A DNA stretch of 64,000 nucleotides from Cyanobium sp. E1_MAG_00006 (GTDB taxonomy: Bacteria > Cyanobacteriota > Cyanobacteriia > PCC-6307 > Cyanobiaceae), in contig JAIYAQ010000021.1 in the NCBI GenBank assembly GCA_027488975.1, forward strand, positions 12,455 through 76,454. Reading direction: 5' to 3'. Below are positions 3,574 to 13,156 of the stretch, piece by piece; position 1 is the stretch's first letter; each line of letters opens with the position of its first letter. The position numbers were made by a program, and so were the translations under genes. The notes beneath the pieces were generated by a model, which was given only the letters and a program-made list of their open reading frames with translations, was not told the DNA's origin and searched no databases.

Positions 3574-4479
3574 TCACTCCTCGGGCCCGATGCCCTGCGC
3601 AGTCCGGTCGTGCTCCAGCAGCCGCTCCACCAGGAGCTTGAGCAGCAACGACACGATTGCCACGCCGCCCAGAACGGTGGCGGCACCGAAGGCCAGCTCG
3701 GTGTTGTACTGCTTGTAGGCGTCCTCCACAAACAGCGGCAGGGTCTGGGTTTCGCCGCGGATGTTGCCGCTCACCACCGACACAGCCCCGAATTCTCCGA
3801 GAGCCCTGGCGGCGGTGAGGATCAGGCCGTAGAGAGCCGCCCAGCGCACCGAGGGGAGGGTCACCTTCCAGAACACCTGCCAGTCATTGGCCCCGAGCGT
3901 CTTGGCGGCTTCCTCCTGGTCCCAGCCCTCCTCCTCGAGCAGCGGAATCACCTCCCTAGCCATGAACGGGAAGGTCACGATGATCGTGGCCAGCACGATG
4001 CCAGGGGTGGAGAAGATGATCTTCAGGCCGAGGGCGTTCAGCAGCCCGGCGAACAGCCCGTTGTTGGGGCTGTAGAGCAGCACCAGCATTAGACCCACCA
4101 CCACCGGCGAGATCGAGAACGGCAGGTCGATCACGCTGAGCAGCAGGGCCTTGCCGGGGAACTGGCGCCGGGCAATGGCAGTGGCCGCCGCGAGGCCGAA
4201 GATGCAGTTAGCTGGCACCACGATGGCCGCATCCAGCAGCGTGAGGCGCAGGGCCGACATCAGATCGGGCGACTGGAAGTTCTCCAGGAACGGGGCCAGG
4301 CCCTTGGCGAACGCCTGAACCACAACGGCAATGGCCGGCAGCAGGATGATCACGCCCACGTAGAGGCACGAGACCAGCACGATCAGGGCGGGGCCCAGGC
4401 TTTTCAGGCGTGCCCGGAAGGTGGGTTTGACCCAGGCGGGCGGCTGAACATCCTCGAGTGGCGGGGTGACGAAAGTCAT
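3574..4479 (-). CDS. cysW: sulfate ABC transporter permease CysW
   Basis: IDLPFSISPVVVGL, EEAAKTLGA (EAA loop), ARALGEFGAV, TQTLPLFVEDAYKQY. Confidence 0.95.
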   Translation of the reverse strand: MTFVTPPLEDVQPPAWVKPTFRARLKSLGPALIVLVSCLYVGVIILLPAIAVVVQAFAKGLAPFLENFQSPDLMSALRLTLLDAAIVVPANCIFGLAAATAIARRQFPGKALLLSVIDLPFSISPVVVGLMLVLLYSPNNGLFAGLLNALGLKIIFSTPGIVLATIIVTFPFMAREVIPLLEEEGWDQEEAAKTLGANDWQVFWKVTLPSVRWAALYGLILTAARALGEFGAVSVVSGNIRGETQTLPLFVEDAYKQYNTELAFGAATVLGGVAIVSLLLKLLVERLLEHDRTAQGIGPEE

Positions 4480-4522
4480 GGCAACACCGGCGGCAGAGAG
4501 CTGAGCGGGAGAGCGGAGCGCA

Positions 4523-5377
4523 TCAGGTGGCCTCGGCGCCCTGGTAGCGCTGACCCCAGACCTGCAGGAGGTTGATCACCAGCAGACTCACCAGTGCGAA
4601 CAGCAGCATCACGGTGCCGATCACCGTGGCGGCCGGCAGGTCGTATTCCTCCAGCTTCTGCACGATCAGCGTGGGCGTGATCAGATCGCGGAAGGGCACG
4701 TTGCTGGAGATCATGATCACGGATCCGTACTCCCCCACAGCGCGGCTGTAACCCTGGGCGACGCCCGAGAGAATCGCCGGCAGCAGTTGCGGCAGGACCA
4801 CTCGGAAGAAGGTCTGGCTCTGGCTCGCGCCGAGGCACCACGACGCCTCCTCCTGCTCCTTCTCGAGGGAACGGAGCACCGGCTCCACGGTGCGCACCAC
4901 GAAGGGAAGGGAGATGAACACCATCGCCACGGCAACCCCGAAGGAGGTGAAGGCCACCTTCACGCCGAACAACTGCAGGATCGGCCGGCCCAGCCAGCCC
5001 TCTTCGCTGTAAACGGCCGTGAGCGCCAGGCCCGCCACGGCGGTGGGGAGGGCAAAAGGCAGATCGATCAGCGAATCCAGCAGCCGCTGGCCAGGGAAGC
5101 GGCAACGGATGAGTGCCCAGGCAATCACCAGGCCAAACAGACCATTGATCAGGCTGGCGATCAGGGCCAGTCCGAAACTGATCTTGTAGGTGGCCACAGC
5201 CTCGGGGGATGTGGCGATCTCCCAGAAGTCCGCCGGCCCGACGTGGAAGGCCTTGAGCAACATGCCGCCGAGCGGCAGAAAGAGCATCAGGCTGAGATAC
5301 AACCAGGTGATGCGCCACGACCAGCTGGGCAGCTGGAGCCTGGGCAAGCGCCGCAGGCGGGAGAGAACAGCGGCCAT
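4523..5377 (-). CDS. cysT: sulfate ABC transporter permease CysT (CysU)
   Basis: DLPFALPTAVAGL, LPFVVRTVEPVL, EEASWCLGAS, GEYGSVIMIS; ATG at 5377 chosen, ORF extends to 5458. Confidence 0.95.
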   Translation of the reverse strand: MAAVLSRLRRLPRLQLPSWSWRITWLYLSLMLFLPLGGMLLKAFHVGPADFWEIATSPEAVATYKISFGLALIASLINGLFGLVIAWALIRCRFPGQRLLDSLIDLPFALPTAVAGLALTAVYSEEGWLGRPILQLFGVKVAFTSFGVAVAMVFISLPFVVRTVEPVLRSLEKEQEEASWCLGASQSQTFFRVVLPQLLPAILSGVAQGYSRAVGEYGSVIMISSNVPFRDLITPTLIVQKLEEYDLPAATVIGTVMLLFALVSLLVINLLQVWGQRYQGAEAT

Positions 5378-5569
5378 TGCGCTGGTCGTACCGGAGTAAC
5401 CCGAACGTACCACCAGATCAGAGTCAATACAACGGTAATCCACCGGGTTTATGGCCATAGCATGCCGCTAGCGCTTGCCGCCAACGGAGCAGACGGATCA
5501 GGGAGCTGGAGCAGCCCGAGCTGACCCCATCCCTACGTCTGGTCAAAATGGATCAAACGATCAGCCGCC

Positions 5570-6592
5570 ATGGGCATCCGGGTCGCCAACGTCAGTAAGC
5601 GCTTCGGTGACTTCCACGCCGTGGATGAAGTCAGCGTTGATGTGGAGAGCGGCTCCCTGGTGGCCCTGCTGGGCCCATCCGGTTCCGGCAAGAGCACCCT
5701 GCTGCGCCTGATCGCCGGCCTTGAGGAGATCGACAGCGGCCGCATCTGGATCACGGGTGAAGAAGCCACCGGCCGCACCGTTCAGGACCGCCAGGTGGGC
5801 TTCGTGTTCCAACACTTCGCCCTGTTCAAGCACCGCACGGTGCGCCAGAACGTGGCCTTCGGCCTGGAGCTGCGCCGCTGGAAACGGGAGGCGATCCGTC
5901 GCCGCGTCGACGAACTGCTGGACCTGGTGCAGCTGCAGGGCCTCGGCAACCGCTACCCCTCCCAGCTCTCCGGTGGCCAGCGGCAGCGGGTGGCCCTGGC
6001 CCGGGCGCTGGCGGTGCAACCGCGGGTGCTGCTGCTGGACGAACCCTTCAGCGCCCTCGACGCCAAGGTGCGCAAGGAACTGCGGGCCTGGCTGCGCCAG
6101 CTCCACGATGAGATGCACGTCACCACCGTGATCGTGACCCACGACCAGGAGGAGGCGATGGAGGTGGCCGACAAGATCGTGGTGATGAACCACGGCAGGG
6201 TGGAGCAGATCGGCACCCCGGCTGAGATCTATGACCACCCGGCCACCCCCTTCGTGATGGGCTTCATCGGGGCGGTCAACGTGTTGCCCCAGGGGGCGAT
6301 CCAGGTGGCCAGTGGCACCGGCGCCGGCACTCCGGCGGAAGCGCAGTTGTTCGTACGCCCCCACGATGTGGAGGTGTTCACCGAGCCCCAGGCCGGCACC
6401 GTTGCCGTGGAGCTGCGCCGCCTCAGCCACATGGGCCGCGATCTGCAGGCCGAGCTGGTGATGGCCGATGGCCAGGTGATCACAGCCCAGATCCCACGCG
6501 AGCAGATGGCGTTCGACAGCGTCAGCCCCGGCAGCCTCCTCCACGTGCGCAGCCGCGAGGCCCGCGCCTTCACGCCGGACTACAGCATCTGA
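5570..6592 (+). CDS. cysA: sulfate ABC transporter ATP-binding protein CysA
   Basis: Walker [44 protein letters not shown]-like C-terminus. Confidence 0.95.
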
Positions 6593-6668: not shown

Positions 6669-7058
6669 TTGTTCTCGGCCACCTTTCGCTATGCCCTGAT
6701 CAGCCTGCTGGAGATCGCCGGCTCGGAGGACGGTGTGAACACGGCCTTGATCGCCCAGCGCCACAACATTCCCGGCACGTATCTCGCCAATGTGCTGCGT
6801 GATCTGCGCCGGCTGGGAGTGATCGTGAGCCAGAAGGGGCGCCGCGGCGGCTACCTGCTGGCCAAACCTCCGGAGCAGATCGATCTGCTGGCCATGCACC
6901 GTGGACTGGCTGGATCCAACGATCCAGCGGGATCGAAGCTGCAGGCACCCAGCGGCGCTGAAGTGTGGCTCCAGGCGATCGAGAACCGCTGGCGCCAGGA
7001 GCTGGCGAACACCAGCCTGCTGGACGTGCAACAGTTCGTACAAAAAGGTACGGAATGA
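6669..7058 (+). CDS. Rrf2-family transcriptional regulator (Cys-free)
   Basis: RYAL..L..IA...IA.R.NIP..YL..VL..LRR.G.I.S.KG..GGY.LAKPPEQI; no cysteines. Confidence 0.85.
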   Translation: MFSATFRYALISLLEIAGSEDGVNTALIAQRHNIPGTYLANVLRDLRRLGVIVSQKGRRGGYLLAKPPEQIDLLAMHRGLAGSNDPAGSKLQAPSGAEVWLQAIENRWRQELANTSLLDVQQFVQKGTE

Positions 7059-7495: not shown

Positions 7496-8074
7496 TCAGG
7501 CAAAAACGGCGGAGATCGCGGTGGAGGGGATAAACAGATCGTCCTTACTGATCTGTTGCAGCACACCCTCACCCTTGTAACGGTTGAGCATCTTGGTCAC
7601 CGTCACCCGTGTCAGGCCGCAGAGATCAGCCAGTGATTTGTGGGTGAGGTTCATGTCCTTGAGCGAGAGGCGATAGCCCCTGGAACTCACCTGGCCGAAA
7701 CGCCGGCCGATCCAGGCCAGCAGGGTCAGCAGTCGCTGGTCGGCCGAGCGGATGCGGTTGAGTTGAAGAATCTCCTCGAGGTTCTGGATCTGCTGGAGCA
7801 GCAGCCGCTCCACATCGGAAGCGGCCGGCTGGAACTGCTCCACGATCACGGTGGAGATGCACTGGATCTCCACGGGCTTGAGGGCGGAGTAGGCGGCGGT
7901 GACCCAGTCACCGGGCCCCCAGACCCCGAGAACGATGAACTCTCCATCCTCGTCCCATGTGGAGGTGCGGATGTAGCCGTCCTGAATCTTCCAGTTCAGG
8001 GTTTCCTGCAGCACGTCACCGGGCTGCAGGGTGAGGCGGAGCGGTTGCTGTGTGGCGGTGGTGGCGGCAGGCAT
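7496..8074 (-). CDS. cysR: Crp/Fnr-family regulator, CysR-like
   Basis: Crp fold (G.F..LG.WGPGD) and HTH LTHKSLADLCGLTRVTVTKML; location inside a sulfate ABC cluster as known for Synechococcus CysR. Confidence 0.75.
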   Translation of the reverse strand: MPAATTATQQPLRLTLQPGDVLQETLNWKIQDGYIRTSTWDEDGEFIVLGVWGPGDWVTAAYSALKPVEIQCISTVIVEQFQPAASDVERLLLQQIQNLEEILQLNRIRSADQRLLTLLAWIGRRFGQVSSRGYRLSLKDMNLTHKSLADLCGLTRVTVTKMLNRYKGEGVLQQISKDDLFIPSTAISAVFA

Positions 8075-8250: not shown

Positions 8251-8682
8251 TCAGATGAAGTACATGGCCTGTGGTTGCCGCAGGGCATCACGCCGCTCGA
8301 TCAGCCGCTCCAGGCTGGTGCCCTCAAGGGCCTGCAGCCGGGCCCGATCCAGCTCGCCAGCAAAGGCGTGCAGCGCCTCGAACTCCGGCGTCTGTCGCCC
8401 AACGGCATCACGACTGGCGCCATCCCCTTCCAAGCAGCTCACAACCTCGGACACGAGGATCTCGCCAGGGGGTCGGGTGAGCTGATATCCACCCTTCGGA
8501 CCGCGGATACTGCGCAGAATCCCGCCGCGCCGAAGGCTGGTGAGCATCTGCTCCAGGTAGCGATCGGGAATGCCCTGGCGCGTGGCGATCTCGCCCACCT
8601 GCAGCACCCCGCCACTGCTGTAAAGGCCGGCCAGCTCGATCAGAGCCACCAGGCCGTATTTGGTCTTGGAGCTGAAGGCCAC
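8251..8682 (-). CDS. Rrf2-family regulator, CymR-like
   Basis: FSSKTKYGLVALIELA...EIATRQGIPDRYLEQML..LRRGG.LRSIRGPKGGY.L.RPP; no 3-Cys Fe-S motif; C-terminus ...QAMYFI; GTG start at 8682. Confidence 0.85.
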   Translation of the reverse strand: MAFSSKTKYGLVALIELAGLYSSGGVLQVGEIATRQGIPDRYLEQMLTSLRRGGILRSIRGPKGGYQLTRPPGEILVSEVVSCLEGDGASRDAVGRQTPEFEALHAFAGELDRARLQALEGTSLERLIERRDALRQPQAMYFI

Positions 8683-8831
8683 TGGCTTACCGGAGATTGA
8701 TCTCAGACCGGATTGTGACAGCGGGAGCAGGGCCCGAAGGAGGCACCCGACTTTTCCGATGATGTAAACGGGAATACGCTGCAAGGGCCCTTCAGATCCG
8801 TACCTTGCCCCGAGTATCCAATCGAATTTAC

Positions 8832-9878
8832 GTGGCATCCCTTTCCACCCTGTTGCCCCGCCGGCTCGGTGCGGGCCTGGCCCTCACCGCCCTGGCAGCG
8901 AGCAGCGGCTCGGTCCTGCTGGCCGCCCAGGCCCAGGCCCAGGCGAATAAGCAGCAGCAGATTCTGCTGGTGAGCTACGCCGTCACCAAGGCGGCCTACG
9001 ACAAGATCATTCCTCTCTTCCAGGCCGACTGGAAGAAGAAGACCGGTCAGACCGTGGTCATCAAGACCAGCTATGGCGGCTCCGGCTCCCAGACCCGCGC
9101 TGTGATCGATGGCCTTGAGGCCGATGTGGTCGGCCTGGCCATGGCCGCCGACGTCACCAAGATCGAGAAGGCCGGCCTGATCCAGCCCGGCTGGGCCGAA
9201 GAGCTGCCCAACGACTCGGTGGCGACCAACTCCACCGTGGCTTTCTTCGTGCGCCCGGGCAACCCCAAGAAGATCAACAGCTGGAAAGATCTCGACAACA
9301 AGGACGTTGACGTGGTCACCGCCAATCCCAAGACCTCCGGTGGCGCCCGCTGGAACTTCCTGGGCCTGTGGGGCTCAGTGACCGAGACCGGTGGTTCGGA
9401 AGCCGATGCCAGGAAGTACATCGCCTCGGTGCTGCGCAACGTGGATGTGCTGCCCAAGGACGCCCGCGAAGCCACCGACACCTTCGTGAAGCGGCGCAAG
9501 GGTGATGTGCTGCTGAACTGGGAGACCGAAGCGATCCTGGCCAAGAAGAACGGCGAGTGGACTGTTCCCTACAAGCTCCCCAGCCCCAACGTGCTGACAG
9601 AAATGCCGATCGCCGTGGTCGACAAGAACGTGGACAAGCGCGGCACCCGCAAGGTGAGCGAAGCGTTCGCCAGGTTCCTGTTCTCGCCTGCGGCCCAGAG
9701 GGCCTTCGTGGATAACGGCTTCCGCCCGGTGACACCGGAAGGCAAGAAGTATGCCGGCACCCGCTTCCAGCAGGTGAAGTTCTACCGGGTGGGCGATTTC
9801 GGTGGCTGGCCCGGGGTCGACCGGAAGTTCTTCGGCAAGGGCGGCGTCTGGGATCAGATCTTCTCCAAGAACCGCTGA
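8832..9878 (+). CDS. sbpA: sulfate-binding periplasmic protein (copy 1)
   Basis: LLVSYAVTKAAYD, SYGGSGSQTRAVIDGLEADVV, NPKTSGGARWNFL, NWETEA; AQA-type signal peptide; start uncertain. Confidence 0.92.
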   Translation: MASLSTLLPRRLGAGLALTALAASSGSVLLAAQAQAQANKQQQILLVSYAVTKAAYDKIIPLFQADWKKKTGQTVVIKTSYGGSGSQTRAVIDGLEADVVGLAMAADVTKIEKAGLIQPGWAEELPNDSVATNSTVAFFVRPGNPKKINSWKDLDNKDVDVVTANPKTSGGARWNFLGLWGSVTETGGSEADARKYIASVLRNVDVLPKDAREATDTFVKRRKGDVLLNWETEAILAKKNGEWTVPYKLPSPNVLTEMPIAVVDKNVDKRGTRKVSEAFARFLFSPAAQRAFVDNGFRPVTPEGKKYAGTRFQQVKFYRVGDFGGWPGVDRKFFGKGGVWDQIFSKNR

Positions 9879-9916
9879 TCCCCGACTCCGACGGAGGGAC
9901 ACCACACCAGAAGCCC

Positions 9917-9947
9917 AGGCCTCGGCGGTCTCCGCCGGGGCCTTTTT
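9917..9947 (+). terminator. Rho-independent terminator after sbpA
   Basis: 12-bp stem AGGCCTCGGCGG-TCT-CCGCCGGGGCCT (one G-U pair) followed by TTTT. Confidence 0.85.
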
Positions 9948-9972
9948 GCAGCAGAAGCTTTGCAGCAGAAGC
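9945..9972. repeat. 14-bp tandem duplication
   Basis: TTTGCAGCAGAAGC x2, exact. Confidence 0.85.
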
Positions 9973-10019
9973 ACCCGCCCGCCGCGGTAGGCTTATCTCT
10001 TGTTACACATCAGATTACC

Positions 10020-11093
10020 GTGGTATCCAGCCCCGCCGGTCGTGTCAGTCGGTTTGCATCAAGTGCTGTGCTGGCCTCCACCGCCTGCATCGCCCTTGCC
10101 GGCTTGACGGGCTGCGGCACGCCAAAGGCCACGACAGAAGCGGGGAATAGCAGCAGTTCCCCGCAGCAGCTCCTGCTGGTGAGCTACGCCGTCACCAAAG
10201 CGGCCTACGACCGCATCCTGCCCGCCTTCGAAGCGGACTGGAAGGCCAGAACGGGGCAGAGCGTGAGCGTGAAGACCAGTTACGGCGGCTCCGGCTCCCA
10301 GACCCGTGCCGTGATCGATGGACTGGAGGCCGATGTGGTGGGGCTTGCCCTGGGCGGCGATGTGCTGAAGCTCCAGAAGGCCGGCCTGATCGAGGCTGGC
10401 TGGGATAAAGAGCTGCCGCACGACTCCACCATCACCCACTCGGTGGTGGCCCTGATCACCCGCGAGGGCAATCCCAAGGGCATCCGAACCTGGAAGGATC
10501 TCGGCAAGGCAGGCGTTTCGGTGGTGACGGCCAACCCCAAGACCTCCGGTGGCGCCCGCTGGAATTTCCTGGCGCTGTGGGGATCAGCCAGCCGTGATGG
10601 CGGCAGTGAGGCTCAGGCCCGTGCCTTTGTGGGCCAGGTGTACGGCAATGTTGAGAGCCTGCCGCGGGATGCACGCGAGGCTTCGGATGTGTTCCTCAAG
10701 CGCGGCCAGGGGGATGTGCTGATGAACTACGAGAACGAGGCGATCCAGGCGCGCAAGAGCGGCGAGCTGACGCAATCCTTCCTGGTGCCGGAGCAGAACA
10801 TCCGCATCGATGCCCCGATCGCCGTGGTGGACAGGAATGTGGACAAGCACGGCACCCGCAAGGCCGCCGAAGCGCTGGCGACGTTCCTGCAGAGTGAGAA
10901 GGCTCAGACCATCTTCGCGGAGGAGGGATTCCGGCCGGTGAACGAGACCGTGTGGACCAAGGTCAAGGATCGTTTCGCTCCGGTGCCGCGGCTGTTCAGC
11001 GTGGCCGATTTCGGTGGCTGGGAGAAGGTCAACGCCACCTTCTTCGGCGACGGCGGCCTCTGGGATCAACTGTTCCGCCAGCGCCGGGGCTGA
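10020..11093 (+). CDS. sbp: sulfate/thiosulfate-binding lipoprotein (Sbp copy 2)
   Basis: same Sbp motifs as copy 1; lipobox LAGLTG-C; NYENEA; start uncertain. Confidence 0.9.
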   Translation: MVSSPAGRVSRFASSAVLASTACIALAGLTGCGTPKATTEAGNSSSSPQQLLLVSYAVTKAAYDRILPAFEADWKARTGQSVSVKTSYGGSGSQTRAVIDGLEADVVGLALGGDVLKLQKAGLIEAGWDKELPHDSTITHSVVALITREGNPKGIRTWKDLGKAGVSVVTANPKTSGGARWNFLALWGSASRDGGSEAQARAFVGQVYGNVESLPRDAREASDVFLKRGQGDVLMNYENEAIQARKSGELTQSFLVPEQNIRIDAPIAVVDRNVDKHGTRKAAEALATFLQSEKAQTIFAEEGFRPVNETVWTKVKDRFAPVPRLFSVADFGGWEKVNATFFGDGGLWDQLFRQRRG

Positions 11094-11899
11094 TGTGTGA
11101 ACTGCTGGCCCTCAGCGCCAATACCCCCACAGACATGCGCTTCTCCTTCCGCGGCCTGGCGCGGCGCGGCGGCGCGACGGGGGACCATGGCGACGGCTGG
11201 GGGCTGGCCAGCTTCGACCCCCAGGGGGGTGGGCTGAACATCTATCGCGAGCAGACACCCGCCGCCTTCTCACCGGTGGCGGCCCATCTCTCCGAACTGG
11301 ACCTGAAATCACTCGTGTCGCTGGCGCACATCCGCAAAGCCACCCAGGGCGTGGTGACCCTGGAGAACTGCCATCCCTTCCATCGCCAGTGGCTGGGTCA
11401 GGACTGGGTGTTCGCCCACAACGGCGACATCCGCACCGACATTCCCGGGGGCGATCACTACCGCCCGATCGGCGACACCGACAGCGAAGCCGCCTTCTGC
11501 TGGATGCTCAACCAGCTCAGCGAGCGATTCACTGCGCCGACAGCAGCTCCGCCCGATGGACATGCCCTGTTCCCGCTGCTGAACACCTACTCAGCGCACC
11601 TCGCCGGCCATGGCATCTTCAACTGCCTGATCAGCAACGGTGAGTGGCTCTACGCCTATTGCGGCACCAAGCTGCACACGATCACCCGCCGGGCGCCATT
11701 CACCTCGGCCACCCTGGCGGATGACGATGTGACGGTGGACTTCTCGACGCTGACCACCATTCGTGACGTGGTGACGATCGTGAGCACCGAGCCGCTCACC
11801 AGCAATGAAGCCTGGCGCCCGCTCGATGTGGGTGAGGCCCTGCTGCTGCAGCGCGGTGAGGTGGTGGAACGGCGTCTGGCCCCTCAGAGCGGGCTCTGA
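11093..11899 (+). CDS. class II glutamine amidotransferase (YafJ-like Ntn hydrolase)
   Basis: starts MCELL (Cys2 nucleophile), DHGDGWG, AHIRKATQG, NCHPF, FAHNG, GDTDSE; TGATG overlap with the sbp2 stop. Confidence 0.9.
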   Translation: MCELLALSANTPTDMRFSFRGLARRGGATGDHGDGWGLASFDPQGGGLNIYREQTPAAFSPVAAHLSELDLKSLVSLAHIRKATQGVVTLENCHPFHRQWLGQDWVFAHNGDIRTDIPGGDHYRPIGDTDSEAAFCWMLNQLSERFTAPTAAPPDGHALFPLLNTYSAHLAGHGIFNCLISNGEWLYAYCGTKLHTITRRAPFTSATLADDDVTVDFSTLTTIRDVVTIVSTEPLTSNEAWRPLDVGEALLLQRGEVVERRLAPQSGL

Positions 11900-11967: not shown

Positions 11968-12144
11968 TCAGGGCTCAAGAGGTGGCGTCTGCTGACTGAT
12001 CATCCAGTTTGTGGCCGCCTGCTGGGTGTGCCAGGCCTGGAGCAACTGCTTGGCCAGGCTGCGCAGGGCATCGGCGTCGGCAGTGGCCTCGATGGCCCGG
12101 TTGAAGCGCTCGATTTCGAAGTGCTGGCTGAGGCTCAGTTCCAT
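11968..12144 (-). CDS. nblA: NblA-like phycobilisome degradation adaptor
   Basis: MELSLSQHFEIERF...LAKQLLQAW..QQAATNWMI aligns by eye with NblA LSLEQQF.I..F...L..L..Q....A....; 58 aa, two helices. Confidence 0.6.
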   Translation of the reverse strand: MELSLSQHFEIERFNRAIEATADADALRSLAKQLLQAWHTQQAATNWMISQQTPPLEP

Positions 12145-12180
12145 GTCCGCTTGCATCCGAATACTCCCTTGACTGGCGGG

Positions 12181-12221
12181 AATGTATCGGGATGGCACTT
12201 TGCTGGCGTAGCGATCAGCAC
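12181..12221 (-). promoter_or_regulatory. putative NtcA-activated (class II) promoter of the nblA-like gene
   Basis: minus strand reads GTG-N8-TAC (12221-12208), 21 nt, then TACATT (TAN3T, 12186-12181). Confidence 0.55.
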
Positions 12222-12313
12222 CAACCCACAGCCCTGTTCCTGTTTCGGGTTATGACAACGGCCACGCTCATCAGCGCTGCAAATCAGAATCATCAGCGAT
12301 CTGGAGTGGTTGC

Positions 12314-12478
12314 ATGCGCCTGAGCTGGCCCCAGCACCTGCTGACCGCCCGGACCCTCGAGCTGAGCGGCCCTGAGGAGCGCGGCATGGCCCTGGCCCTG
12401 ATGGGCATGGCGCTGCTGCTGCTCTCTCAGGACCTGCTCGACCTGGAAGCCGGTCATCCCAGCGCCGAGGAGCACTGA
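12314..12478 (+). CDS. 54-aa hypothetical protein (not in ORF track)
   Basis: MRLSWPQHLLTARTLELSGPEERGMALALMGMALLLLSQDLLDLEAGHPSAEEH*; GC3-rich; convergent with hsp20. Confidence 0.5.
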   Translation: MRLSWPQHLLTARTLELSGPEERGMALALMGMALLLLSQDLLDLEAGHPSAEEH

Positions 12479-12481
12479 GCC

Positions 12482-12919
12482 TCAGGCCTCCACCTGCACG
12501 CTTACCGTGGTGGCGGTGTTGGCTTTGGGAGCCGTCACCGTGAGCAGGCCATCGCGATAGCGGGCCTGCAGCTGATCACGATCAATCGGAGCCGGGAAGC
12601 GGAAGCTGCGGCTCCAGGTGCCGTAGCGGAACTCGCTCACCAAGGGGCGAGCCCCAACGTCGCTGGCGTCGGCCGCGGCCTCTTCAGGCTGGCTGCGCTG
12701 GTTGCGGCGCTCGGCGCTGATCACCAGGGTGCGGTCGGTGGCCTTGACATCGATGGCGCCCTTGTCGACGCCGGGGAGCTCCAGCACCACCGCGTAAGCC
12801 TCGGCAGTTTCATGCACTTCAGCGGCGGGCACCCGCTCGGCGGTCTGCAGCTGCTGGCTCAGTTGCTGCTCGATGCGATCGAACAGTTCAAACGGAGAGG
12901 AGGTGCGCAGGGTCAACAT
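12482..12919 (-). CDS. hspA: Hsp20/alpha-crystallin small heat-shock protein
   Basis: PAAEVHET..AY.V.LELPGV...IDV....L.ISAERR...SEFRYG.WSRSF.FP...D......YRDGLL.V..PK. Confidence 0.9.
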   Translation of the reverse strand: MLTLRTSSPFELFDRIEQQLSQQLQTAERVPAAEVHETAEAYAVVLELPGVDKGAIDVKATDRTLVISAERRNQRSQPEEAAADASDVGARPLVSEFRYGTWSRSFRFPAPIDRDQLQARYRDGLLTVTAPKANTATTVSVQVEA

Positions 12920-13156
12920 GGTTTGCATGGCGAAGGATGGATGTCGGGGTCGTCGTTCGCCCCCGCTGCAGCCATGCTCAGCCGGCTATCCCGGGGCGGG
13001 GATCGTGGCAGCCGTACCGATCGTTTCGGCCCTCACCACCGCGGTACGGCAGACCGATCCAAAGGGTGAGGGCAGCCGAATCAACCCAGTAGCCACACCG
13101 CTGAACCGTGGCCAGGGTGAGGGCCACCCCCACACCCGCCTCCGCGGCCACCGCCC

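What the first reader, a model, noticed from the sequence alone, without database searches (positions are those of the whole stretch)
11968..12221. Divergent NblA-like gene with an NtcA-type promoter at the edge of the sulfur island
The 58-aa protein matches the NblA pattern (LSLxQxFxIxxF, second helix LxxQLLQAWxxQQAA). Upstream on its own strand is GTG-N8-TAC-N21-TACATT, a class II NtcA promoter layout, overlapped by two CGGGA(A)T copies 11 bp apart that also occur before sulfur genes. This suggests dual N/S input to phycobilisome degradation in a lineage where NblA is divergent and easily missed.
Basis: partly seen in the sequence, partly recalled or inferred. Interest (0 to 1): 0.75.

Follow-up and report, generated by a model that had tools for sequence, protein, structure and literature searches.

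The report
Divergent NblA gene with NtcA promoter
This is a small gene of the divergent NblA family that picocyanobacteria are already known to carry (the adaptor that marks the light-harvesting antenna for breakdown when nutrients run out), and it sits behind a well-conserved nitrogen-regulator (NtcA) promoter; the proposed sulfur-control link did not hold up.

Summary
The best start is ATG 12156, which gives 62 aa rather than 58.

**NblA identity.** Pfam NblA (PF04485) does not hit the protein, and the genome has no canonical nblA. Three other results point to NblA:
- A profile of 95 diverse family members aligns full-length to a profile of 46 diverse canonical NblAs (hhalign 94%, P=1.4e-7; shuffled controls P≥0.33).
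- The predicted two-helix hairpin matches a canonical NblA model to within one residue.
- The protein is 42% identical (E=8e-14) to the marine Synechococcus gene published as host nblA2.

Divergent picocyanobacterial NblAs are already described (Nadel 2019; Nature 2025), so this is a new member of a known kind.

**Promoter.**
- All 29 related loci examined carry a GTA-N8-TAC-type box (at most one mismatch) with TAN3T 21–22 nt downstream.
- The invariant alignment columns are essentially the GT/AC of the box and the TA/T of the −10.
- This genome's own ntcA gene uses the same GTG variant.
- I found no paper reporting this for picocyanobacterial nblA.

**Sulfur link.**
- CGGGA(A)T is not enriched and is not conserved in orthologs.
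- Adjacency to the sulfur island is specific to this strain.
- The island's CRP-type regulator is absent from many genomes that keep the box.

The parts
11968..12156 (-). nblA-like gene, 62 aa plus stop (type-1 picocyanobacterial NblA: MQADMELSLSQHFEIERFNRAIEATADADALRSLAKQLLQAWHTQQAATNWMISQQTPPLEP)
   Evidence: ORF list. 173 homologs. 330 representatives at 50% identity. hhalign against canonical NblA gives 94%, P=1.4e-7. AF2 predicts helices 9-24 and 28-56. 42% identical to WH8109-type nblA2.
12164..12168 (-). Shine-Dalgarno GGGAG, 7 nt before ATG 12156
   Evidence: Read from the sequence.
12181..12186 (-). -10 box TACATT (TAN3T type). Predicted TSS about 12173-12175.
   Evidence: Sequence. 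The TA and final T are invariant in 17 aligned orthologous promoters. Spacing of 21 nt from the box in 27 of 29 related loci and 22 nt in two. The TSS is inferred, not measured.
12208..12221 (-). NtcA-type box GTGCTGATCGCTAC (GTG-N8-TAC). Its centre is about 41 nt upstream of the predicted TSS.
   Evidence: Sequence. GT and AC are invariant across orthologs, and 12 of 18 type-1 loci have canonical GTA-N8-TAC. The same GTG-N8-TAC-N22-TAGGGT lies upstream of ntcA in this genome, and GTAACGCCTGTTAC lies upstream of amt1. An ntcA gene is present.
12235..12256 (-). Degenerate copy of a conserved upstream element (consensus TTACAACnTGAAACACTGACA). Function unknown.
   Evidence: Conserved block in alignment A5, about 14 nt upstream of the box. 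No clear genome-wide pattern.
12177..12193 (+). CGGGAAT and CGGGAT copies overlapping the -10 region. Judged to be chance.
   Evidence: 12 copies in the window against 11.6 expected. Not conserved in orthologs.
12314..12478 (+). Divergently transcribed 54-aa conserved hypothetical gene ('small54'), a syntenic partner of type-1 nblA-like genes
   Evidence: Found next to the nblA-like gene in 14 of the 17 other type-1 loci. 72 homologs, all unnamed, no Pfam match.

Best explanation
The 62-aa protein belongs to the divergent NblA family of picocyanobacteria. It is a roughly 60-residue helix-loop-helix protein. By analogy with characterised NblAs, it would dimerise and act as an adaptor that bridges phycobiliproteins to the ClpC-ClpP protease, so that the phycobilisome is dismantled during nutrient starvation.

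Its transcription is most likely activated by NtcA, the 2-oxoglutarate-responsive nitrogen regulator. The promoter is class II: a GTG-N8-TAC box, 21 nt of spacer, a TACATT -10 box, no -35 box, and a leader of about 18 nt with a GGGAG ribosome-binding site.

Shown here: homology to NblA, the fold class, conservation of box and -10, and the presence of ntcA and of phycobiliprotein genes. Inferred: dimerisation, ClpC and phycobiliprotein binding, bleaching function, TSS position, and induction under nitrogen starvation.
For: Homology:
- The family profile (95 representatives) against 46 diverse canonical NblAs gives hhalign Prob 94%, P=1.4e-7 over 60 columns covering both helices. Reversed and 30 column-shuffled controls give P>=0.33.
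- NblA 1OJH is the top PDB sequence hit of the family profile, though weak at E=0.095.
- 6 of 95 family members touch PF04485 at E<=1, best 0.002.
- With a canonical-NblA HMM, this ORF ranks first among all ORFs of the genome, though not significantly (E=3).

Fold:
- AF2 (pLDDT 81) predicts helices 9-24 and 28-56. These are domain positions 4-19 and 23-51, against 4-18 and 22-49 in a canonical NblA model.

Link to the literature:
- The published qPCR primer for host nblA2 (PMC12695635) hits ORF L090:1465-1623 exactly. That ORF is 42% identical to this protein, E=8e-14.
- The family's distribution matches that paper: multi-copy in one genus, including copies interrupted by stop codons; a single weak copy in 1.3-1.9-Mb genomes; absent from many other small genomes.

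Promoter:
- All 18 type-1 and 11 type-2 loci carry a box with at most one mismatch, with TAN3T 21-22 nt downstream, 64-77 nt before the start codon.
- Of the nine invariant columns in the alignment, seven are the GT and AC of the box and the TA and T of the -10; one lies inside the box spacer and one in the upstream element.
- The composite pattern occurs only 11 times in the genome. The hits include ntcA itself and both nblA-like paralogs, each with 23-24 nt between -10 and start codon.
- No sigma-70 -35/-10 promoter is detected.

Other:
- ntcA is present.
- Phycobiliprotein genes are present, 11 matches.
- The mechanism of characterised NblA comes from the review PMC7966870.
Against: - There is no direct Pfam PF04485 or NCBIfam match.
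- hhalign against a narrow canonical alignment gave only 26-31%, restricted to helix 1. The 94% result depends on a diverse template.
- Helix 2, which binds phycobiliprotein in characterised NblAs, shares little sequence with canonical NblA. The basic residue that aligns with Anabaena K53 is Ser in this protein (my residue count on the alignment; the role of K53 is recalled from memory).
- The Foldseek PDB search found nothing, but a canonical NblA control also found nothing, so this is uninformative.
- Relatives occur in Prochlorococcus lineages without phycobilisomes (PMC12695635), so the targets need not be phycobiliproteins.
- The box is GTG, not GTA.
- There is no TSS, expression or binding data.
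Confidence: 0.72

Rival explanations
1. It is an NblA-fold small protein under nitrogen control, but its target is not the phycobilisome. It might act as a Clp adaptor for other proteins, or as a partner in heterodimers with the other paralogs, so that alone it would not cause bleaching.
For: - Helix 2 diverges from canonical NblA.
- The genome holds three paralogs, and up to seven occur in related genomes.
- Relatives exist in phycobilisome-less Prochlorococcus, and viral NblA directs cleavage of many non-antenna proteins (PMC12695635).
- Synechocystis needs an NblA1/NblA2 heterodimer (reference cited in PMC7966870).
Against: - This genome has a full set of phycobiliprotein genes.
- The nitrogen-regulated promoter fits the classical role.
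- The helix-1 motif is retained.
Confidence: 0.18
2. The palindromic box is bound, also or instead, by the CRP-family (CysR-like) regulator encoded in the neighbouring sulfur island. This would give sulfur-starvation input, as in the reader's dual N/S idea.
For: - A CRP-family regulator is encoded at 7496-8074(-).
- The sulfate-binding-protein gene has a similar GTAAACGGGAATAC-N23-TACCTT layout.
- nblA of S. elongatus responds to both N and S starvation (established knowledge).
Against: - Real orthologs of the regulator (at least 36% identity) are found in only about 7 of 19 genomes, whereas the box is conserved in all of them, including six same-genus genomes that lack it.
- Adjacency to the sulfur genes is unique to this strain.
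- CGGGA(A)T is at chance level and not conserved.
- In the sbpA promoter CGGGAAT lies inside the box. Here it overlaps the -10, so the two are not the same element.
Confidence: 0.07
3. It is a chance ORF in GC-rich DNA, and the promoter-like pattern is coincidental.
For: High-GC DNA (66.9%) yields many spurious ORFs, and several overlap this locus.
Against: - There are hundreds of conserved homologs with 23 invariant residues among 32 sequences.
- The start position, Shine-Dalgarno and promoter are conserved.
Confidence: 0.01

Closest known systems
Divergent NblA proteins of marine picocyanobacteria (for example Synechococcus sp. WH8109 NblA2, Syncc8109_1607; Nadel et al. 2019; PMC12695635, Nature 2025)
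   Same: - Same sequence family: 42% identity, E=8e-14, to the primer-defined nblA2 ORF.
- Same size and two-helix prediction.
- Same failure to match Pfam PF04485.
- Same lineage distribution and multi-copy habit.
- A canonical GTA-N8-TAC-N21-TATTTT promoter also precedes the tandem nblA-like pair in that genome.
   Different: - This copy comes from a high-GC Cyanobium-type genome, not subcluster 5.1.
- It belongs to a subtype (FEIERF..RAID..AKQLLQAWHTQ) paired with a conserved divergent 54-aa gene.
- I did not find the NtcA promoter or this pairing mentioned in the papers I could search.
Canonical NblA (Pfam PF04485; Anabaena PCC 7120 1OJH, S. elongatus PCC 7942, Synechocystis NblA1/2)
   Same: - About 60 aa, helix-loop-helix.
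- N-terminal LSLxQxF motif.
- Full-length profile-profile alignment.
- Nitrogen-regulated expression through NtcA is established for the model-organism genes.
   Different: - No direct HMM match.
- Helix 2 (LAKQLLQAWHTQKAATNW) differs from canonical (FLVKLYEQMVVRE..LLKHQW).
- Function has not been tested.
NtcA-activated class II promoters of cyanobacteria (GTA-N8-TAC about 22 nt upstream of TAN3T; for example glnA, ntcA, amt1)
   Same: - Box, spacing and -10 type match, and there is no -35.
- This genome's ntcA and amt1 carry matching boxes.
   Different: - GTG replaces GTA in this strain, whereas most orthologs have GTA.
- TSS and binding have not been measured.

Membership tests
NblA (PF04485 / phycobilisome proteolysis adaptor) | Significant match to the curated Pfam or NCBIfam model | tested here: not met
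   No PF04485 hit at E<=1 and none in NCBIfam. The whole-genome scan with PF04485 finds only a 12.6-bit hit to the C26 paralog. The published WH8109-type NblA2 also fails.
NblA (PF04485 / phycobilisome proteolysis adaptor) | Remote homology to canonical NblA over both helices | tested here: met
   hhalign 94%, P=1.4e-7, 60 columns. Shuffled and reversed controls give P>=0.33. With a narrow template only 26-31%, helix 1 only.
NblA (PF04485 / phycobilisome proteolysis adaptor) | About 60-aa helix-loop-helix monomer | tested here: met
   AF2 pLDDT 81, helices 9-24 and 28-56. The boundaries match a canonical NblA model within one residue. Foldseek against PDB is uninformative because the control also found nothing.
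NblA (PF04485 / phycobilisome proteolysis adaptor) | Dimeric four-helix bundle | not testable with these tools
   Only monomer prediction is available. Dimer models of picocyanobacterial NblAs are reported in PMC12695635.
NblA (PF04485 / phycobilisome proteolysis adaptor) | Binds ClpC and phycobiliproteins; required for bleaching | not testable with these tools
   Needs a pull-down and a mutant. The substrates exist: 11 phycobiliprotein matches in the genome.
Divergent picocyanobacterial NblA family (PMC12695635) | Sequence homology to a published member (WH8109 nblA2) | tested here: met
   Exact primer match at G348:C1:1201319 within ORF L090:1465-1623. BLASTP 42% identity, E=8e-14.
Divergent picocyanobacterial NblA family (PMC12695635) | Lineage distribution: several copies in Synechococcus-type genomes, a single copy in some small Prochlorococcus-type genomes, none in others | tested here: met
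   141 of 201 same-family genomes match. Up to 7 copies in genus g84. Single weak hits in 1.3-1.9-Mb genomes and none in many others.
NtcA-activated class II promoter | GTA-N8-TAC box with a TAN3T -10 box 20-23 nt downstream and no -35 | tested here: met
   GTG-N8-TAC-N21-TACATT. All 29 related loci carry the same layout with at most one mismatch. Invariant columns include GT/AC and TA/T. No sigma-70 promoter is found.
NtcA-activated class II promoter | NtcA encoded in the genome and using such boxes | tested here: met
   NtcA_cyano at 374.7 bits. ntcA upstream: GTGTCAACCGTTAC-N22-TAGGGT. amt1 upstream: GTAACGCCTGTTAC.
NtcA-activated class II promoter | Box centred near -41.5 of a mapped TSS; NtcA binding; induction when nitrogen is withdrawn | not testable with these tools
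No TSS or expression data.
   12 copies against 11.6 expected in the window. Absent from orthologous promoters. The sulfur genes are not syntenic with the gene elsewhere.

The most novel reading that the evidence does not exclude
Type-1 picocyanobacterial nblA-like genes may form a conserved, undescribed module. The module would comprise the NtcA-driven nblA, a divergently transcribed 54-aa hydrophobic microprotein (small54), and a shared 21-nt element (TTACAACnTGAAACACTGACA) bound by a second regulator. In that case antenna degradation in this lineage would integrate a second signal (light, redox or sulfur) and would use an accessory small protein, as NblD does in Synechocystis.
Probability: 0.15. 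Interest if true: 0.55.

Novelty: new member of a known kind. Interest (0 to 1): 0.3.

Why it matters
Picocyanobacteria were long said to lack nblA. It is now published that they carry divergent copies, and this gene is one more of them in a Cyanobium-type genome, so the identification itself is not new.

What this analysis adds is regulatory. An NtcA-type promoter is conserved across both main subtypes of the family, in many genera, and in a marine Synechococcus. This supports the idea that these divergent proteins are part of the nitrogen-starvation response, and it gives a simple handle (promoter fusions, EMSA) for testing their role. It also warns that Pfam-based annotation will keep missing them.

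Tried and rejected
Searches that found nothing or were uninformative:
- Direct Pfam and NCBIfam scans found no NblA.
- phmmer against PDB gave only chance hits.
- hhalign with a narrow canonical alignment gave weak, helix-1-only matches. A diverse template was needed.
- Foldseek against PDB found nothing, and the canonical NblA control also found nothing, so the library or tool is blind to this fold.
- Foldseek against BFVD found only an uncharacterised phage homolog (57% identity) and C7F495, which I could not name.
- tblastn against GenBank phages gave no match.
- The supplementary NblA sequences of the Nature paper are not held.
- An exact primer search in genome contigs gave no hit. The genome search solved this.
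- Rfam gave only sub-threshold chance hits.
- No intrinsic terminator or sigma-70 promoter was found.

Ideas tested and rejected:
- CGGGA(A)T as a sulfur element is rejected.
- The CysR-like regulator as the cognate factor is rejected as the general explanation.
- The HLR1/RpaB-box reading of the upstream conserved element was tried. There is no strict HLR1 site in the genome, and the loose matches were uninformative. The element remains unexplained.
- A strict GTAN8TAC genome scan did not recover a broad NtcA regulon. There are only 52 sites, and glnA has no match to the relaxed box pattern GT[AG]N8[TC]AC. The motif in this organism is therefore more degenerate than the textbook consensus.

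Full report
**What is in the sequence**

On the minus strand an ORF ends at TGA 11970-11968. It has in-frame starts at 12198 (GTG), 12156 (ATG) and 12144 (ATG).
- ATG 12156 gives 62 aa and is the likely start. GGGAG lies 7 nt upstream (12168-12164), and homologs begin four residues before the conserved 'ELS'.
- The motifs LSLSQHFEIERF and LAKQLLQAWHTQQAA are present.
- Upstream I read GTG(12221-12219)-N8-TAC(12210-12208)-N21-TACATT(12186-12181), as reported.
- On the plus strand, CGGGAAT (12177) and CGGGAT (12188) lie 11 bp apart.

**Context**
- cysW and cysT-like permeases at 3574-5458(-), and cysA at 5570-6592.
- Two Rrf2 regulators at 6669-7058(+) and 8251-8838(-).
- A CRP-family regulator at 7496-8074(-).
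- Two sulfate-binding proteins at 8805-11093.
- A class-II glutamine amidotransferase ending at 11899.
- Then the small gene (-), a divergent 54-aa ORF (12314-12478, +) and an hsp20 gene (12482-12928, -).

The 'sulfur island' is therefore real. The genome is 2.70 Mb with 66.9% GC. Named homologs come from Cyanobium, Vulcanococcus and Synechococcus.

**Is it NblA?**

PF04485 and NCBIfam give no hit at E<=1. A six-frame scan of the whole genome with PF04485 finds no canonical nblA, only a 12.6-bit hit to a paralog on contig 26. By contrast, 50 of 151 cyanobacterial genomes sampled across the phylum have a clear PF04485 gene, and none of the same-family genomes sampled do.

The protein nevertheless belongs to a large, tightly conserved family:
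- 173 clusters at 90% identity, all 'hypothetical'.
- 330 representatives at 50% identity.
- 23 invariant residues among 32 sequences.
- Three paralogs in this genome.
- Matches in 141 of 201 genomes of the same GTDB family. One genus has up to seven copies, including some interrupted by stop codons. Genomes of 1.3-1.9 Mb have single weak matches, and many other small genomes have none.

Comparison with canonical NblA depended on how diverse the template was.
- Against 27 near-identical canonical NblAs, hhalign gave only 26-31% probability, confined to helix 1.
- I then collected 46 diverse canonical NblAs from the PF04485 hits.
- The 95-member family profile aligned to that set over 60 columns, covering both helices, with probability 94% and P=1.4e-7.
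- The reversed profile and 30 column-shuffled profiles gave P>=0.33.

Weaker results point the same way:
- NblA 1OJH is the best PDB sequence hit of the family profile, at E=0.095.
- Six of 95 members touch PF04485 at E<=1, best 0.002.
- With an HMM of canonical NblAs, this ORF is the top-ranked ORF in the genome, though not significantly.

AlphaFold2 (pLDDT 81) predicts two helices, residues 9-24 and 28-56. Counted from the ELS motif, these are positions 4-19 and 23-51. A canonical NblA model has helices at 4-18 and 22-49.

Foldseek against PDB returned nothing. A canonical NblA model with pLDDT 95 also returned nothing, so that negative result carries no weight.

**Link to the literature**

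PMC12695635 (Nature 2025) reports that marine Synechococcus carry several highly divergent nblA genes. WH8109 has five plus a pseudogene, and low-light Prochlorococcus have one. Many were detectable only with a dedicated profile, and their predicted structures keep the NblA dimer architecture. PMC7439483 cites Nadel et al. 2019 for a divergent nblA-like gene in WH8102.

I tied this gene to that work through the published qPCR primer for host nblA2.
- The primer matches one related genome exactly.
- It lies inside a 52-aa ORF, MNMSLPQQFEAEAIKRSINDTDDLDQLKALARELADLYVRQRAATAWVIAEK.
- That ORF is 42% identical to the window's protein, E=8e-14.
- It also lacks any Pfam hit.

The gene is therefore a member of an already described divergent NblA family. 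The copy-number pattern matches the published one.

**Promoter**

I extracted the upstream regions of 29 related loci.
- Every one of the 18 type-1 loci (FEIERF subtype, like this gene) and the 11 type-2 loci (FELERM subtype, like the contig-26 paralog) carries a box with at most one mismatch to GTA-N8-TAC.
- In each, TAN3T follows 21 or 22 nt downstream, and the box lies 64-77 nt before the start codon.
- Twelve of the 18 type-1 boxes are canonical GTA-N8-TAC.
- In the alignment of 17 type-1 promoters, seven of the nine invariant columns are the GT and AC of the box and the TA and final T of the -10. The other two are one G inside the box and one base in an upstream element.

Within this genome:
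- The composite GT[AG]N8TAC-N20-23-TAN3T occurs only 11 times.
- The hits include ntcA itself (GTGTCAACCGTTAC-N22-TAGGGT, the same GTG variant), both nblA-like paralogs, and sbpA.
- In the ntcA and nblA-like hits, 23-24 nt separate the -10 from the start codon.
- amt1 has GTAACGCCTGTTAC upstream.
- An NtcA_cyano gene is present at 374.7 bits.
- No sigma-70 -35/-10 pair is detectable, as expected for an activator-dependent promoter.
- The WH8109-type tandem nblA pair also has GTACTAGTTGTTAC-N21-TATTTT.

This is strong comparative evidence for NtcA control. NtcA control of nblA is established in freshwater model strains. I found no paper in the searchable library that reports it for the picocyanobacterial genes. 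That is a statement about the library, not proof of novelty.

**Sulfur link**
- CGGGAWT occurs 12 times in the window against 11.6 expected.
- The two copies at the promoter overlap the -10 region and are not conserved in any ortholog.
- At sbpA, CGGGAAT lies inside a GTA-N8-TAC box, which is a different context.
- The amidotransferase and sulfate genes are adjacent to the nblA-like gene only in this genome.
- The island's CRP-type regulator could in principle recognise such palindromes. However, real orthologs (at least 36% identity) exist in only about 7 of 19 genomes checked, while the box is conserved in all of them, including six same-genus genomes that lack the regulator.

NtcA, which is present in this genome and is generally held to be universal in cyanobacteria, is therefore the parsimonious factor. 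A strain-specific sulfur input cannot be excluded, but nothing here supports it.

**Mechanism proposed**

Under nitrogen limitation, 2-oxoglutarate-bound NtcA binds the box centred about 41 nt upstream of a TSS near 12174. It recruits RNA polymerase to the TACATT -10, and a short-leader mRNA is translated into the 62-aa protein. By analogy with characterised NblAs (review PMC7966870), the protein dimerises, possibly with a paralog, and bridges phycobiliproteins to ClpC-ClpP3/R.

Shown here: homology, fold class, promoter conservation, and the presence of ntcA and 11 phycobiliprotein matches. Inferred: everything biochemical.

Two caveats apply. Helix 2 is very different from canonical NblA. 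Relatives occur in organisms without phycobilisomes (PMC12695635), so the target range may differ.

**Limits**

No multimer modelling and no PDB coordinates for superposition were available.

**Verdict**

The conserved NtcA promoter and the conserved divergent microprotein partner are modest additions.

Noticed in passing
window 12314-12478 (+): A 54-aa ORF (MRLSWPQHLLTARTLE...GMALALMGMALLLLSQDL...) is divergently paired with the type-1 nblA-like gene in 14 of the 17 other type-1 loci. It has 72 homologs, all 'hypothetical' and about 54 aa, with no Pfam or NCBIfam match. It may be an accessory microprotein of the same response.
   Followed up: partly
window 12235-12256 (- strand); alignment A5 columns about 26-47: A conserved element of about 21 nt, TTACAACnTGAAACACTGACA, lies about 14 nt upstream of the NtcA box in type-1 promoters and is degenerate in this strain. 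TGAAACAC also sits between the box and the -10 in type-2 promoters. It does not fit a sigma-70 promoter for the divergent gene, and it is only a poor HLR1/RpaB match.
   Followed up: partly
window 8764-8777 and 7038-7051: These are the only two canonical GTA-N8-TAC palindromes in the window (0.3 expected). The first, GTAAACGGGAATAC-N23-TACCTT, lies 25 nt before the first sulfate-binding-protein gene. This is a class II CRP/NtcA-family layout that could belong to the CRP-like regulator at 7496-8074(-), or could indicate NtcA input to sulfate uptake.
   Followed up: partly
genome contig C26:9311-9547 (-) and C2:178710-179285 (+); locus L001: There are two further paralogs of the family in the same genome. 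The C26 copy (type 2, FELERMNRAID...WVMRQQ) has its own GTGCCTTCCAATAC-N21-TAGCTT promoter. It is preceded by an 80-aa ORF with a C-x3-C-x7-C-x3-C motif, whose coding sequence (ECVTRCVEEL) is conserved upstream of other type-2 loci. The C2 copy is more divergent and has no obvious box.
   Followed up: partly
genome contig C22:124798 (-): GTAACGGCTGTTAC-N23-TAGGCT lies 26 nt before a 57-aa ORF (MQTKLQAQRADGAWDQLKTYPNPLL...). This is another short gene with a canonical NtcA-type promoter. It is not identified.
   Followed up: no
BFVD hits to the model: An uncultured Caudovirales protein (A0A6J5MWP6, 197 aa) carries a segment 57% identical to this protein. Some phages may therefore encode the picocyanobacterial type of NblA, not only the canonical-like type. 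GenBank phages gave no tblastn hit.
   Followed up: partly
tool behaviour: A Foldseek search of the PDB library returns no hit even for a high-confidence canonical NblA model. Negative PDB fold searches for short two-helix proteins should not be read as evidence in this setup.
   Followed up: yes
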